From NCBI RefSeq assembly GCF_009914755.1, contig NC_060931.1: a stretch of 64,000 nt of DNA, one strand, 5' to 3'. The translations under genes were made by a program, and so were the position numbers. Origin of the DNA: the human T2T-CHM13v2.0 reference genome, Homo sapiens. How positions within the stretch are numbered: position 1 is the first letter of the stretch; every line of letters begins with the position of its first letter. The notes below the pieces were generated by a model, which was not told where the DNA came from, did not search any database, and saw only the letters and a list, made by a program, of their open reading frames with translations. Of the stretch, positions 12,258 to 20,966 are shown in pieces.

Positions 12258-12271
12258 ATAACCTGAGGACC
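12258..12271 (+). other. IKZF1: IKZF1 exon 2, 5' UTR portion (full exon 12258-12311, 54 nt)
   Basis: Acceptor cttcctctctttctcag|ATAACCTGAGGACC directly precedes the Kozak ACCATGG. Confidence 0.95.
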
Positions 12272-12311
12272 ATGGATGCTGATGAGGGTCAAGACATGTC
12301 CCAAGTTTCAG
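12272..12311 (+). CDS. IKZF1: IKZF1 exon 2, coding part (40 nt, MDADEGQDMSQVS + phase-1 G)
   Basis: Kozak GACCATGG; translation matches the Ikaros N-terminus; donor CAG|GTGAGA at 12312. Confidence 0.97.
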
Positions 12312-13493
12312 GTGAGACCTTATGAGATAGCTGTGTGGGAAGTTCATGAGAAAAGCTTCCCTGGGGCCGGAAGTCACAGTGCTTGGTATGCTCATGGGGG
12401 AGGAATAGGGGCTATTCTGCAAAAGAAAAGACCATGATGGAATTTGCCTGAGTGTTTCCTTCACCTGTTACAAATTATCTCACTTTGAGCTGAACAGAAA
12501 GCCTCCAAGATGAAATTAGTTTTACTGTTAAACTTCAGGAAAAAAAAACGGGAAGAGTTAAATACATTTTTGTACTGTTGGAAGGAAAAATGGCTGATTG
12601 GTTTAAAACCCAAACACATGCCAATGATGGTACTTAAAGAGAGAGAGAGAGAGAAGCTTGAAAAACATAATTGTTGGGCACAGTCATGACTGTTTGTTCA
12701 TTAAGCATGGACACAACATTGCTCCCCTTTGCCATATATCTTTTCAAGCCGTATTGGATATAGCTCTTCTCATCCAGGAGACCCAGGAAGTGGAGAAGTC
12801 TGTAGTAGGAAAAGCCTAAGGGTAGGTCACAGACTGTGACCATTTGGCAGCACTGAGGGTGGACGGCGAGCCAGTCCAACAAAACCGCACAGTTCCCCAG
12901 TGCATGGACATAGGAAGACAGCTTTCTATCTGGCCCTGTATCCAGAGGCGTCAGCCCCAGTAGCAGCTTTCATGGACTTTGGGGTTTTCGGTATTTCATA
13001 TTTTTGAGCCTCACAGACTCACAGCCAGCCCCAGAGGCTGACTTATATTTGAGAAAGTTCTCAGTGGCACCTTGCCTTGGCTGAGCGCCCTCGTGTTTTG
13101 AAGTTTCTATGGGATTCTACAAGTTGGTGCTCCTGATGAAGACCAGGACCTATGTGTGGCTGCTCCCCTGCTTGGTGGTTTCCCTGGGGAAGGTGCAGGA
13201 GAGGATCTTCTGAGTTCCATGGAACTGGAGATAGATCTGCCAATCACAGGCTTCCTTCTCCACCACTCCTCAGCCGCTCTATTCATGTTTCAGATTTTGG
13301 ACTTAAACTCTCCCAGGTGCAAAGAACAAACAAAAGGCTAGCTTATTTTTCTTTTAGAGTGAGGCTTCGTATTTATTACAATATAATTGCCACATTCTTT
13401 GTGTAATTCTCACATTTATATCTTAAATATAATTCTCATGAATGAGAATTATATAATTCTCTTTTTGTATATCATTGAATATTTTCACTTAAT

Positions 13494-13895
13494 TTTTAAT
13501 TTTTTTAATTGTCACAAAATAATTGTGTACATAGACACAAAATAATTGGGTACATAGTGATGTTGTGATATATACAATGTATAGTAATCGGATCAGGTAA
13601 ATCAGCATATTCATCATCTCAAACATTTATCGTTTCTTTGTATTAGGAACATTCGACATCTTCCTTCTAGCTATTTGAAACTATATATTATTGTTGACTA
13701 CAGTCATCCTGCAATGGTGTAGAACACTAGAACTTATTCTTCCTACCTAGCTGTAATTTTGTCTCCTTTAACAAATCTCTCCCTATCTTCCACTCCCCCG
13801 ACCTTTCCAGCCTCTATTAGCCTCTGTCCTACTTTCTACTTATAATGATGACAGCAGCATTTGTTAGTTTCCACATGTGAGTGAGAACATGTGGC
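13494..13895 (-). mobile_element. L1MA-type LINE-1 3' end, antisense
   Basis: T-rich start then atctcaaacatttatcgtttctttg...tagaacactagaacttattcttcc...tccacatgtgagtgagaacatg, typical of the reverse-complemented L1MA 3' UTR. Confidence 0.8.
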
Positions 13896-13909
13896 TTTTT
13901 AACTTTTAG

Positions 13910-14330
13910 AATGTGGTATTCAGGCACTTCATGGTACAGTTGGTAAAAGTGAAAATGTGTCCAAAAGTTTGTGATTATCTATATAAACAAAAATGGTATA
14001 AATCCAAATATCAATTTTGCATTGAAGAACTTACCTTAGAGGTATATTCTCACAAGTGCACAGAGCATTTAAGCATTTGTTCACTGCAGCATTGTTATCA
14101 GTATTTTAAAACTATGGTACATCCATGTACTTCCACATACAGCTCTTAAAAATAAGGAGGATATGAATGAACTAGTATGAAAAGAAGTCCAAATACATGT
14201 GAAAGTGAGAATAGCATGGTTCTGGATGGTATGCAAAGTATGATCTCGTTCTTTTAAAAGAAAATAAATTACATACACATACATATTTTCTATATGCTTG
14301 CCCATAACGTTTAGGAAAATTCTTGGGTGA
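13910..14330 (+). mobile_element. Old L1M(E)-type fragment
   Basis: ttcactgcagcattgtt...aaactatggtacatccat resembles a degenerate L1 ORF2 end / 3' UTR. Confidence 0.5.
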
Positions 14331-18701: not shown

Positions 18702-18998
18702 GGCCGGGCGCAGTGGCTCATGCCTGTAATCCCAGCGCTTGGGAGGCCAAGGCAGGCAGATCACGAGGTCAGGAGATCGAGACCATCTTGGCTAACACGG
18801 TGAAACCCTGTCTCTACTAAAAAAATACAAAAATTTAGTTGGGCATGGTGGGGGATACCTGTGGTCCCAGCTACTCGGGAGGCTGAGACAGGAGAATGGC
18901 TTGAACCTGGGAGGCCGAGCTTGCAGTGAGCCAAGATCGCGCCACTGCACTCCAGCCTGGGTGACAGAGCAAGACTCTGTCTCGAAAAAAAAAAAAAA
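18702..18998 (+). mobile_element. AluY-type element, sense
   Basis: GGCCGGGCGCAGTGG start, gctaacacggtgaaacc, gagcttgcagtgagcc, poly(A); flanking TTCTATTTA target-site duplication. Confidence 0.93.
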
Positions 18999-20149
18999 TT
19001 CTATTTACAGCAGTGAAAATAGTAGTGACTTAATGCACATTGCCAAGGCTTTAGCATAACATGAACACTTTCACTCAATGTCTCTCTGGCCTTTTGTTTT
19101 TCCTTGGGAAATTCTTATAATCCTGCTCCGTCTTTAACTATTCATTTTGTATTGGCTATCCAAATATACCCAATAATGCTCTTTCTGAAAATATGCCAAT
19201 TGTGGTAATTACAGCTAAGCTGGAATATTAAATTGTGATGTCTGTTTTCCAGAGAATGAAGTAGTATTCCCCAGAGCATAGGCTTGGTGCCTGTGCAGGT
19301 TCTATTTTAAATATTCCAGGAAGGGTTGTTTTATATACTGAGGATGATTTTACTGGTCTTGCCAGTCGTCTGAAATGCTGGTATTACTCTTGTGGAAGGT
19401 TTATTCAAACAAACAAGGACATTTCACACAATACCTAGTCATGTTTTTCAGACATTTTAATGTTTGGTTCATCATTTGCACACACTCTCAAAAATCTAGG
19501 TTTGTCTATGTGTTCATATCATTTTGCCTGTTGCCAGCTCAGTCAGCAGGCACACTCTCCCAGGCTGTTGCTGTTTTGTTAGACTTCTTCAGGACCTTCA
19601 TCTAAAATGGTCTTCCACACGTAGCTATACTGCATAAGTTCACATCATCTGTTTCTTGCATGTGGGTTGTGTCTCAACTCAAGTTTAAGTTAGATTTGGA
19701 AGGGCGGAAACTATAGGAGTTGCAGCTTCAGTGGAGAAAAGAGCATTTCCTACTAGTTATGGCTTCCCAAGGAAGGTTAGATTCCTCAGAGTAGGAGTGA
19801 TTCCCCAATGCTAGAACCTTTGGTCAAATATAATTCTAATCCAGTCAAAATAAATACAGGTATTCTGTAAAACCCGATTTCATTTTGTAAATCCTACTTT
19901 GTATAGTATAAGCAATTTTTGTATTTGTGTGGATTATATTTTATTTTCCTATTTCAAAGAGAAGAATTTGTATTAGCAGACTCCCTTTGCATGCGGAGAG
20001 GGGATCATTTTCCCAGTAGGCATGGGGTTCCCTTCCATTCCTTGTCCAGTCTTCTTTTCCCCACTAAGTTAAGTCAAACTAAGCAGCTGGTAAGATATTC
20101 CCTGGTTCTTGCAAAGAAAGTGAGCAGATGGCAGAATGTATAGCTCTAA

Positions 20150-20680
20150 GCAGAATACCTGGTGTGGTATCCTCAAACACAAATTGACAGGAGGGTGTGG
20201 TGTGGCAAGCTCATTGTGGGGGTAAATTGGAATAAGCTTACAGGGGGAAGAGTTGACAAAAGATAGGAAGAACCTTAAAAATATAGATGCCTTTTATGCA
20301 GTGATAAAATGTCTAGATATTTATACTGTGGTGATTATTAGGAATATGTGCAAAGATTGGCTATTAGGATGTTCATTACAGTGTTGTTTAATAATTATAA
20401 AAGGACAGAAAGCAATGTGGACTCAAAAATAGGAAAAGAATTTAAATAAATCCTAGTGTACCCGTTATACATGAAATTATGGAAATATGACCCTGAGCAT
20501 GGAAATATGTACATGAGAATGTCTAAAAGCTAGTTCATTTTGAAAAACAAAATAATGTCACCTCATATTATTTATAGTATATAAAGATGATTTTAAGAGT
20601 GGCAGTGTCTGGGATTATAGGTGATTGTATTTCTTCCCTTTTGCACATCTATGTTCTCTCATTTGTATTGTGTGGGGAGA
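20150..20680 (+). mobile_element. Old L1M(E)-type fragment
   Basis: ggatgttcattacagtgttgtttaataa...aaataaat...catgaaattatg resembles a degenerate L1 ORF2 end / 3' UTR. Confidence 0.5.
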
Positions 20681-20846
20681 AGTGACTTTTTTTATAAAAA
20701 GAAAAAGGTATATGCATCCCAGCAGAGAAGCACTGGCTCCACCCAGTACCTGCCTCCTCATGCCACCCTCTCAAGCCAAAAGCCGGGGGAAGCCCAGGCA
20801 CCTTGACCATGACCGCCCGAGACTCACACTTCTTCTTTCTCATCAG

Positions 20847-20966
20847 GGAAGGAAAGCCCCCCTGTAAGCGATACTCCAGATGAGGGCGATGAGCCCATGC
20901 CGATCCCCGAGGACCTCTCCACCACCTCGGGAGGACAGCAAAGCTCCAAGAGTGACAGAGTCGTGG
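20847..20966 (+). CDS. IKZF1: IKZF1 exon 3 (120 nt, phase 1-1), including the CtBP-binding PEDLS motif at 20906-20920
   Basis: Acceptor cttcttctttctcatcag|GG and donor TGG|GTAAGT; encodes [40 protein letters not shown]. Confidence 0.97.

What the first reader, a model, noticed from the sequence alone, without database searches (positions are those of the whole stretch)
12258..20966. Exon 2-3 circle is a stop-free infinite ORF: candidate rolling-circle translation of a poly-PEDLS (CtBP-binding) Ikaros peptide
Seen: exon 2 (54 nt) plus exon 3 (120 nt) gives 174 nt = 58 codons. Back-splicing joins the phase-1 G ending exon 3 to the 14-nt UTR of exon 2, reading G|AT AAC CTG AGG ACC ATG (D-N-L-R-T-M). 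The frame returns to the native Kozak ATG with no stop anywhere. The repeat unit is [58 protein letters not shown], which is acidic, likely disordered and lacks zinc fingers. A circle that also includes exon 3B (234 nt, junction C|AT = His) is equally endless. DRACH motifs (GGACC just before the ATG, AGACA, GGACA) are present. Established: PEDLS is the Ikaros CtBP-binding motif; stop-free 3n circles can undergo rolling-circle translation; to my recollection an IKZF1 exon 2-3 circRNA is catalogued in lymphocytes (needs verifying). Inference: concatemers would be multivalent CtBP decoys lacking the zinc-finger degron used by IMiD drugs, and exons 2-3 survive the IK6 deletion. I know of no description of this product.
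Basis: partly seen in the sequence, partly recalled or inferred. Interest (0 to 1): 0.85.

Follow-up and report, generated by a model that had tools for sequence, protein, structure and literature searches.

The report
IKZF1 exon 2-3 circle: endless frame
The known T-cell circular RNA made from IKZF1 exons 2 and 3 does have a reading frame with no stop, but this follows from how the gene's exons are built, is common among comparable exon pairs, and there is no evidence yet that the circle is translated.

Summary
The sequence facts are correct. Exon 2 (54 nt) plus exon 3 (120 nt) gives a 174-nt circle.

The circle is real. circIKZF1(2-3), with the same 8,709-nt span, was found by RNA-seq, enriched by RNase R, Sanger-confirmed and highest in T cells (PMC6789028).

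The endless frame is not special:
- Every internal IKZF1 exon is a multiple of 3, and 36 of 36 contiguous-exon IKZF1 circles are stop-free.
- On chr7, 55 of 259 (21%) comparable "ATG exon + next exon" circles are endless.
- Published rates are 8% of AUG circRNAs and 14% of all circRNAs.
- DRACH motifs and RNA structure are at shuffle level.

The 14-nt leader stays open and the same length across amniotes. It is also read in that frame by N-terminally extended linear isoforms (143 of 143), which explains the conservation equally well.

I found no paper on its translation. Most likely it is a mainly non-coding AUG circRNA. The poly-PEDLS CtBP decoy remains an untested hypothesis.

The parts
12258..12311 (+). 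IKZF1 exon 2 (54 nt). It is the 5' end of the circle and the acceptor of the back-splice.
   Evidence: AG before, GT after; present in 59 of the 61 listed IKZF1 transcripts.
12258..12271 (+). 14-nt leader before the canonical ATG. Read as the last two bases of a D codon plus N-L-R-T after the back-splice, and read the same way in N-terminally extended linear isoforms.
   Evidence: 143 of 143 extended amniote isoforms have a 5-residue segment of pattern x-N-[L/P]-x-x here.
12272..12274 (+). Canonical start codon, with A at -3 and G at +4.
20847..20966 (+). IKZF1 exon 3 (120 nt). It is the 3' end of the circle and the donor of the back-splice at 20966.
   Evidence: It has one match only in the whole genome.
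20906..20920 (+). Codons for PEDLS (residues 34-38), the CtBP-binding motif.
   Evidence: PEDLS is at the same position in 304 of 309 amniote Ikaros proteins. Motif function comes from the reviews.
61225..61284 (+). Alternative exon 3B (60 nt, ends in C). The 2-3-3B circle of 234 nt is also stop-free.
7304..7619 (-). Alu-like repeat in the upstream intron. It is the only repeat there (within the window) with inverted partners in intron 3.
22002..22304 (+). Nearest inverted partner in intron 3 (86.8% over 303 nt), 1,036 nt downstream of exon 3. Total distance of the pair from the circle exons is 5.7 kb.
11762..11777 (+). Coding end of an alternative first exon. It ends in a phase-1 G and joins exon 2 in the same frame as the back-splice.
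   Evidence: The same extension occurs from primates to birds.
61225..61589 (+). Read-through coding part of curated NM_001291845. The linear mRNA encodes a 174-aa zinc-finger-less Ikaros N-terminus that carries PEDLS.
62741..62754 (+). Last coding part of curated NM_001291846/7, which encode a 77-aa zinc-finger-less protein that carries PEDLS.

Best explanation
Positions 12258-20966 span the published circIKZF1(2-3), a 174-nt exonic circle of the 'AUG circRNA' class. It is made by back-splicing of exon 3's donor to exon 2's acceptor between two long introns, and it is most abundant in T cells.

Its endless reading frame is a structural by-product. All internal IKZF1 exons are 3n and phase 1-1. 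This is the architecture that lets Ikaros isoforms skip exons in frame. Exon 2 also behaves as a coding-competent phase 1-1 exon, because several alternative first exons carry in-frame ATGs that read through the 14-nt leader.

The circle is most likely mainly non-coding. Any translation is probably rare, and its repetitive acidic product short-lived.

Shown: the sequence facts, the architecture, the base rate, conservation of the open leader, and (from the literature) the existence of the circle. Inferred: that it is mainly non-coding, and the route of biogenesis.
For: Existence of the circle:
- circIKZF1(2-3) at 7:50319048-50327757 has the same 8,709-nt span. Read counts were B 77, T 211 and monocytes 30. 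It was validated by RT-PCR, RNase R and Sanger sequencing (PMC6789028).

Architecture:
- Exon lengths are 54, 120, 60, 261, 168, 126 and 135/105, all 3n.
- 36 of 36 contiguous-exon circles are stop-free.
- Only 3 of 481 chr7 genes with 8 or more exons have all internal exons 3n.

Base rate:
- 91 of 259 analogous chr7 circles are 3n, and 55 of 259 are endless.
- The literature gives 8% of AUG circRNAs (PMC6487579) and 14% of circRNAs with a host-frame rolling ORF (PMC9242994).

No special translation signals:
- DRACH count 6 against 4.45 +/- 1.38 in shuffles.
- Circular MFE -47.3 against -46.9 +/- 4.2 in shuffles (z = -0.1).
- One hexamer with 5 or more A/U; GC content 57%.

Linear use of the leader:
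- Human model isoforms read it in the same frame.
- 143 of 143 extended amniote isoforms do so, from about 30 upstream contexts.

Class behaviour:
- AUG circRNAs showed no Ribo-seq phasing, peptides or ORF conservation (PMC6487579, abstract and passages).
- Blood-lineage circRNAs gave 0 junction peptides among 192,743 identified peptides (PMC8906552).

Biogenesis:
- The flanking introns are 14.1 kb and 48.8 kb, at the 89.5th and 97.2nd percentiles.
- The nearest inverted Alu pair lies 5.7 kb away in total, beyond the 2.3-kb cut-off for Alu-dependent circles.
Against: - The circle has a strong-context ATG and an endless frame. Synthetic 129-387-nt circles with only a Kozak ATG were translated in lysate and in HeLa cells without an IRES (PMC4639774).
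- One study reports that rolling ORFs are over-represented among circRNAs with mass-spectrometry support (PMC9242994).
- The open, length-preserved leader and the 53-residue exon 2-3 coding length are conserved across amniotes.
- The only junction-specific tryptic peptide has 6 residues, so standard proteomics would miss it.
- No lymphocyte Ribo-seq or proteome could be examined here.
- Supplementary tables of the mass-spectrometry and Ribo-seq studies were closed. They may list or exclude this junction.
Confidence: 0.8

Rival explanations
1. Ribosomes start at the canonical ATG on the circle and go round it many times. The acidic concatemers, with one PEDLS per 58 residues, act as multivalent CtBP decoys. 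They lack the zinc-finger degron and persist after exon 4-7 deletions.
For: - The frame, ATG context and motif are as stated.
- The circle exists and is T-cell enriched, with a high circular-to-linear proportion.
- Small IRES-less circles with endless ORFs are translated.
- PEDLS binds CtBP in Ikaros.
- The open leader is conserved in amniotes.
Against: - I found no report of translation in 4 literature searches.
- Every circIKZF1 passage I read goes back to the one expression study.
- Evidence for the class is negative.
- The endless frame is a 21% base-rate property and is forced by the gene's architecture.
- Initiation signals are at background.
- Rolling-circle products were reported to be low in abundance, and two of the three tested were proteasome-sensitive. 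The unit carries 2 Lys.
- No nuclear targeting is evident in the unit (inference).
- Conservation is equally explained by linear extended isoforms.
Confidence: 0.04
2. The circle is translated occasionally, but the product is a rapidly degraded by-product with no function of its own. At most it is a source of presented peptides.
For: - Rolling-circle products of endogenous circles were low in abundance, and two of three tested rose with MG132 (PMC9242994).
- Junction peptides from endless-ORF circles were seen on HLA molecules for other genes (PMC10943130).
- The ATG context is strong.
Against: - IKZF1 is not mentioned in the main text of either study; their supplements were closed.
- The class-level Ribo-seq analysis found no phased junction reads.
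Confidence: 0.12
3. The circle matters as RNA, or through its making. Back-splicing, or exon skipping through a lariat, removes the ATG exon from some pre-mRNAs and so tunes the output of full-length Ikaros. The linear by-product would start at a downstream ATG in exon 4 and lack PEDLS.
For: - Transcripts that lack exons 2-3 are annotated with a CDS start inside exon 4, at chr7:50537806.
- circIKZF1 varies independently of the linear RNA, with a high circular proportion in T cells.
- The flanking introns are long.
Against: - No exon 1-to-4 transcript is in the annotation of this locus.
- No experiment bears on this; it is pure inference.
Confidence: 0.1

Closest known systems
AUG circRNAs (Stagsted et al. 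2019, PMC6487579)
   Same: - An exonic circle that contains the host gene's annotated start codon.
- Long flanking introns.
- No inverted Alu pair within 2.3 kb total distance.
- It belongs to the 8% minority of the class with an endless ORF.
   Different: IKZF1 is not named in that paper's main text (0 occurrences). Conservation of the circle itself in other species was not testable here.
[quoted passage not shown]
   Same: A 3n length, no stop in the host frame and an in-frame ATG. The product would be a concatemer of a host-protein fragment.
   Different: - Those have reporter, polysome or mass-spectrometry support. This one has none.
- At 174 nt it is smaller than circEGFR (249 nt) or circNFIB (361 nt).
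- It uses the host's own start codon.
Synthetic endless-ORF circles (Abe et al. 2015, PMC4639774)
   Same: Similar size range (129-387 nt) and a Kozak ATG as the only initiation signal.
   Different: - The synthetic circles were designed with AU-rich spacers to avoid structure, and were transfected in bulk.
- Circles with 59-66% GC coding inserts were not translated processively. This circle is 57% GC, with an ordinary predicted structure.
Linear zinc-finger-less Ikaros N-terminal isoforms (NM_001291845, NM_001291846/7) and the Ik6-type NM_001291840
   Same: They carry residues 1-53 with PEDLS. The first two (174 aa and 77 aa) have no zinc fingers at all, and the Ik6-type transcript lacks exons 4-7.
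   Different: They carry one motif per molecule and are made from capped linear mRNA. They are not concatemers.

Membership tests
AUG circRNA | A back-splice junction is experimentally shown. | not testable with these tools
   Taken from the literature only: RNA-seq, RT-PCR, RNase R and Sanger sequencing in PMC6789028. The span of 8,709 nt matches 12258-20966.
AUG circRNA | The circle contains the annotated start codon of a protein-coding host. | tested here: met
   The ATG at 12272 lies inside exon 2.
AUG circRNA | Long flanking introns, and no inverted Alu pair within about 2.3 kb total distance (Alu-independent). | tested here: met
   The introns are 14.1 kb and 48.8 kb. The nearest inverted pair lies 4,639 + 1,036 nt away. 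The upstream intron was searched only within the window.
AUG circRNA | The circle is conserved across species. | not testable with these tools
   No vertebrate RNA data or genomes were available. Only the protein-level conservation of exons 2-3 and of the leader was seen.
circRNA with rolling-circle ORF (rcORF) | The length is a multiple of 3 and there is no stop in one sense frame. | tested here: met
   174 nt; 0 stops in the native frame.
circRNA with rolling-circle ORF (rcORF) | A start codon lies in that frame. | tested here: met
   There are three in-frame ATGs per lap. The canonical one has A at -3 and G at +4.
Rolling-circle translated circRNA | A cap-independent initiation element (m6A site or an IRES-like AU-rich hexamer). 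| tested here: inconclusive
   DRACH count is 6 against 4.45 +/- 1.38 in shuffles, and there is one hexamer with 5 or more A/U. The list of 97 hexamers is in a closed supplement. Methylation cannot be read from sequence.
Rolling-circle translated circRNA | Junction-spanning footprints, junction peptides or concatemer bands. | not testable with these tools
   No reads or spectra were available. None is reported in the papers found.
CtBP-binding PxDLS proteins | A PxDLS motif in an accessible, unstructured stretch. | tested here: inconclusive
   The motif is present at residues 34-38 and conserved in 304 of 309 proteins. Disorder is inferred only from composition: GRAVY -1.18, and 28 of 58 residues are S/T/P/G/Q. 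The structure predictor was switched off.
CtBP-binding PxDLS proteins | Binding of CtBP by this product. | not tested
   For full-length Ikaros only, from the reviews. Nothing is known for a concatemer.

The most novel reading that the evidence does not exclude
In T cells, the 174-nt circIKZF1(2-3) is read round and round from Ikaros's own start codon. The resulting ladder of acidic 6.15-kDa repeats carries one CtBP-binding PEDLS per repeat. It soaks up CtBP, is blind to cereblon-directed drugs and survives exon 4-7 deletions. The amniote-wide preservation of the open 14-nt leader would then partly reflect selection on this product.
Probability: 0.03. Interest if true: 0.8.

Novelty: new member of a known kind. 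Interest (0 to 1): 0.25.

Why it matters
As it stands, the finding matters little. A known lymphocyte circRNA turns out to belong to the sizeable subset of circles with an endless frame, for a reason that the gene's exon architecture fully explains.

It has some practical use.
- Any IKZF1 circle, including the published exon 4-7 circle, is an endless ORF. IKZF1 is therefore a convenient natural test case for whether endogenous AUG circRNAs are translated.
- One of the two proposed diagnostic peptides is ambiguous, and the other is too short for routine proteomics. Any test must therefore be designed specifically.

If translation were shown, a drug-insensitive multivalent CtBP binder made from a leukaemia gene would interest Ikaros, ALL and IMiD researchers.

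Tried and rejected
- Chance test by formula only (61/64 per codon) predicted about 52 of 91 open. I replaced it with the real sequences of 90 start exons plus 14 next exons, which gave 54 of 90. In one of the 90, the annotated start was not ATG; I kept it in the count.
- m6A or IRES enrichment as a hint of translation was rejected: both are at shuffle level.
- A special circular RNA fold was rejected: z = -0.1.
- Proximal non-Alu intron pairing: the best complement within 1.5 kb on each side is a T-run (11502-11522) against an Alu A-tail (22283-22303). It beat the mononucleotide shuffles only because those shuffles destroy runs, so I do not count it as evidence.
- Confusion of the back-splice with linear 5'-exon junctions was rejected. 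Exon 3 shares at most 3 terminal bases with any of the four alternative first exons, and exon 3 is single-copy.
- Orthologue test of the leader: no vertebrate genomes were available. I used predicted N-terminally extended proteins instead. This is biased, because a species with a stop in the leader would give no such isoform. It also reaches amniotes only; no fish or amphibian was sampled. In each search only the best 120 hits were fetched (of 460, 701 and 332). Candidates known from samples alone were left out by the tool (316, 16 and 2).
- 11 of the 325 proteins did not match my N-terminal pattern. Five lack exons 2-3, one is a canonical-start variant, and five are extended forms read by eye (four with the usual segment, one with H in place of N).
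- Paralogue comparison (IKZF2-5) was not done, because there is no transcript table for other chromosomes.
- Disorder prediction by structure model was not possible.
- I did not ask for any supplementary tables. Supplementary Data 4 of PMC9242994, and the supplementary tables of PMC6487579 and PMC6789028, may hold or exclude this junction.
- In PMC6789028 the table row for circIKZF1(2-3) reads "downregulated in T-cells", whereas the counts and the text say T-cell overexpression. I followed the text and the counts.

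
Full report
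**1. What is in the sequence**

- Exon 2 is 12258-12311 (54 nt) and exon 3 is 20847-20966 (120 nt). Both have AG/GT borders.
- Exon 2 opens with a 14-nt leader. The ATG is at 12272, with A at -3 and G at +4.
- Exon 3 ends with the first base of a codon. Joining 20966 to 12258 gives a 174-nt circle.
- In the native frame the circle has no stop. The other two sense frames have 2 and 6 stops per lap.
- The unit weighs 6,151 Da, has pI 4.05 and net charge -10, contains no Cys or His, and has 2 Lys.
- PEDLS is encoded at 20906-20920.
- Exon 3B is 61225-61284 (60 nt, last base C). The 234-nt circle that includes it is also stop-free.

**2. Is the circle real?**

Yes, according to print. Gaffo et al. 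2019 (PMC6789028; abstract and passages read) list circIKZF1 (2-3) at 7:50319048-50327757:+. That is an 8,709-nt span, equal to 12258-20966.

- Read counts were 77 in B cells, 211 in T cells and 30 in monocytes.
- It was one of 21 circles validated by RT-PCR, enriched by RNase R and confirmed by Sanger sequencing of the junction.
- T-cell overexpression was confirmed by qRT-PCR, and the circular-to-linear proportion was high in T cells.
- It was lower in BCR-ABL1 and hyperdiploid ALL.
- The same table lists circIKZF1 (4-7).
- The table row says "downregulated in T-cells", but the text and the counts say the opposite. I followed the text and the counts.

All three other circIKZF1 mentions whose passages I read cite this one study. 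I could not see whether the internal exon 2-exon 3 splice of the circle was verified, because the supplements are closed.

**3. Why the frame is endless**

The annotation shows that every internal IKZF1 exon is a multiple of three: 54, 120, 60, 261, 168, 126 and 135 (or 105). I fetched exons 4-7 and tested all contiguous exon combinations of 2, 3, 3B, 4, 5, 6 and 7, with and without 3B. All 36 of 36 are 3n and stop-free in the native frame. That includes the published 4-7 circle (690 nt).

This all-symmetric architecture is unusual. Only 3 of 481 chr7 genes with at least 8 exons have it: IKZF1, ELN and ADCK2. From established knowledge, it is what lets the Ikaros isoforms drop exons in frame. 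For circles made only of coding exons, the endless frame is automatic.

For circles that start with exon 2, one more condition is needed: the 14-nt leader must have no in-frame stop. That amounts to five codons.

**4. Is that more than chance?**

No.

- Of 885 RefSeq Select mRNAs on chr7, 259 have the ATG in an internal exon that is followed by another internal exon.
- For 91 of those (35%), the two exons sum to 3n.
- I fetched the 90 other start exons. I also fetched the next exon for the 14 cases where the split junction codon could have been a stop.
- 54 of 90 are stop-free. With IKZF1, that makes 55 of 91, or 55 of 259 (21%).
- Among 3n cases with a leader of 8-20 nt, 17 of 22 are open.

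Published figures for real circles agree in order of magnitude:
- Endless ORFs in 8% of AUG circRNAs in human and mouse (PMC6487579, passage).
- Host-frame rolling ORFs in 14% of full-length human circRNAs (PMC9242994, passage).

**5. Signals for cap-independent initiation**

- The circle has 6 DRACH motifs, against 4.45 +/- 1.38 in 300 dinucleotide shuffles. 20% of shuffles reach 6.
- The circular minimum free energy is -47.3 kcal/mol, against -46.9 +/- 4.2 in shuffles (z = -0.1).
- GC content is 56.9%, and only one hexamer has 5 or more A/U.
- The IRES-like hexamers of Fan et al. are described as mostly AU-rich. The list itself is in a closed supplement.

Nothing here stands out except the good ATG context.

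**6. Conservation**

No vertebrate genome was available. I therefore used predicted proteins that start upstream and read through the leader. Three searches gave 325 distinct Ikaros proteins from mammals, birds, a crocodile, lizards, platypus and opossum.

- 171 start at the canonical Met. 143 are N-terminally extended.
- In 143 of 143, the segment just before the canonical Met is exactly five residues of the pattern x-N-[L/P]-x-x.
  - DNLRT occurs 58 times (placentals).
  - DNLRK occurs 29 times, in birds such as Pluvialis, Alca and Excalfactoria, and in Crocodylus, Rhineura, Ornithorhynchus and Monodelphis.
  - DNLKT occurs 22 times (rodents, including Mus and Rattus).
  - DNPRT occurs 12 times (Bubalus, Ovis, Odocoileus, Delphinapterus, Mustela).
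  - A few other variants make up the rest.
- Five more extended forms that my pattern missed agree by eye, one of them with H in place of N.
- PEDLS sits at residues 34-38 in 304 of 309 proteins. Birds and platypus have the same 53-residue exon 2-3 coding length.

So the 3n, stop-free property of the 2-3 circle is shared across the amniotes sampled.

This is weak support for translation of the circle, for three reasons.
- The sample is biased. Only open leaders can give extended models.
- The leader is nearly invariant, so its openness is inherited as one event.
- The same frame is used by linear isoforms from about 30 different upstream contexts.
  - One is a 5-residue start encoded at 11762-11777 that recurs from primates to birds.
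  - Another is a 19-residue start at chr7:50464694-50464751 shared by primates, rodents and bats.
  - Mouse entries carrying the latter are named "isoform 10/20/32", without the X that marks model-only records. That reading of the naming convention is recalled.

Exon 2 thus behaves as a phase 1-1 coding-competent exon, which by itself requires a 3n length and an open leader.

**7. How the circle is probably made**

- The flanking introns are long: 14,124 nt upstream (89.5th percentile of 8,570 chr7 Select introns) and 48,783 nt downstream (97.2nd percentile). Intron 2 is 8,535 nt.
- Within the window, the upstream intron holds one Alu-like repeat (7304-7619, minus orientation). It has five inverted partners in intron 3.
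- The nearest partner is at 22002-22304 (86.8% over 303 nt). It lies 4,639 + 1,036 nt from the circle's exons.
- That is beyond the 2,300-nt total distance used by Stagsted et al. to call a circle Alu-dependent.
- The best closer complement is only a T-run against that Alu's A-tail.

This matches the published picture of AUG circRNAs: long introns and largely Alu-independent biogenesis.

**8. Would it be translated?**

For:
- Synthetic circles of 129, 258 and 387 nt, with an endless ORF and only a Kozak ATG, gave high-molecular-weight products in reticulocyte lysate and in HeLa cells. A stop codon abolished the signal (PMC4639774, Results section).
- Fan et al. report junction spectra for 990 back-splice junctions, about half from rolling ORFs, and tagged reporters for three of them.
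- A 2024 review lists circEGFR and circNFIB as rolling-circle cases.

Against:
- Stagsted et al. examined AUG circRNAs specifically, using about 500 human and 1,300 mouse Ribo-seq sets, proteomics and over-expression. They found no phased junction reads, no confident peptides and no ORF-type conservation (abstract and passages).
- In erythroid cells, megakaryocytes and platelets, junction footprints were far below expectation. None of 192,743 identified peptides matched a junction (PMC8906552, passages).
- Fan et al. themselves report low abundance. Two of their three tested rolling-circle products rose on proteasome block.
- Abe et al. saw poor processivity for circles with 59-66% GC coding inserts.

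IKZF1 is not mentioned in the main texts of PMC9242994, PMC6487579, PMC10943130 or PMC8906552.

Four searches found no paper on translation of an IKZF1 circle:
- "circIKZF1";
- IKZF1 + circRNA + back-splic;
- five spelling variants;
- IKZF1 + "rolling circle translation".

The two hits are reviews. I read one passage of one of them and only the listing of the other.

**9. Practical points for any test**

- Trypsin cuts the unit so that the only junction-specific fully tryptic peptide is 6 residues long. That is below the 7-residue floor of most search pipelines (the floor is recalled). Absence from proteome-wide screens therefore says little.
It is not diagnostic.
- The in-frame 5'UTR of the linear mRNA that uses the first exon at 1911-2117 reads L-V-D-N-L-R. 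That is one residue different from the junction peptide, and it has 36 open codons upstream.
- At the RNA level the junction is clean. Exon 3 shares at most 3 terminal bases with any alternative first exon and is single-copy.

**10. The decoy idea**

PEDLS as the CtBP-binding motif of Ikaros is stated in two reviews (PMC5393059 and PMC5071621, passages) that cite Koipally and Georgopoulos 2000. I did not read the primary paper.

A zinc-finger-less protein that carries PEDLS does not need a circle. Curated linear mRNAs that end inside this window encode 174-aa (NM_001291845) and 77-aa (NM_001291846/7) proteins with residues 1-53 and no zinc finger.

That claim rests on no data.

- Disorder of the unit is inferred only from composition. 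The structure predictor was off.
- The unit shows no evident nuclear targeting (inference).

**11. Verdict**

The circle is already known. The endless frame is real but ordinary, and the gene's architecture explains it. Translation and decoy function are unsupported, though not excluded.

I file it as one more member of the known set of AUG circRNAs with a rolling ORF.

- Interest: 0.25.
- Confidence in the mainly non-coding reading: 0.8.
- Probability of the full decoy model: about 0.03.

Noticed in passing
window 11762-11777 (and the model exon 2119-11777): A 16-nt coding end of a model first exon gives a 5-residue start that joins exon 2 in frame. The same 10-residue extension occurs in primates, a carnivore, deer and several bird orders. 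This points to a real, conserved small 5' exon about 480 nt upstream of exon 2. The 9.6-kb exon body looks like a model artefact.
   Followed up: partly
G000 chr7:50464694-50464751 (locus L006, outside the window): A 58-nt coding first exon adds 19 residues plus the 5 leader residues. It is conserved in primates, rodents and bats, and mouse entries carrying it are named isoform 10/20/32.
   Followed up: partly
window 61225-61589 and 62741-62754: Curated linear transcripts NM_001291845 and NM_001291846/7 end inside the window. They encode 174-aa and 77-aa zinc-finger-less Ikaros N-termini that keep the CtBP motif.
   Followed up: partly
whole IKZF1 gene (window plus loci L001-L004): All internal exons are 3n and phase 1. 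On chr7, only 3 of 481 genes with 8 or more exons share this: IKZF1, ELN and ADCK2. As a result, 36 of 36 exonic IKZF1 circles are endless ORFs, including the published exon 4-7 circle that would repeat the DNA-binding zinc fingers.
   Followed up: yes
window 12258-12311 + 20847-20966, minus strand: The reverse complement of the 174-nt circle also has one stop-free frame. That strand is not part of the circle RNA, so I take it as a curiosity of GC-rich coding sequence.
   Followed up: no
window 1911-2117 joined to exon 2: In linear mRNAs that use this first exon, the in-frame 5'UTR is open for 36 codons upstream of the ATG. It ends one residue different from the circle's junction peptide. This could be confused with the junction peptide in mass spectrometry if upstream non-AUG initiation occurs.
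   Followed up: no
window 38269-59626 and 63263-63539: A 21-kb model first exon (XM_054357031) and an alternative first exon (XM_054357032) lie inside intron 3. Both models start translation at an ATG in exon 4 and so lack residues 1-53 with PEDLS.
   Followed up: no
PMC6789028, Table 1 row for circIKZF1(2-3): The table text says 'downregulated in T-cells', while the counts (T 211 against B 77 and monocytes 30) and the running text say T-cell overexpression.
   Followed up: no
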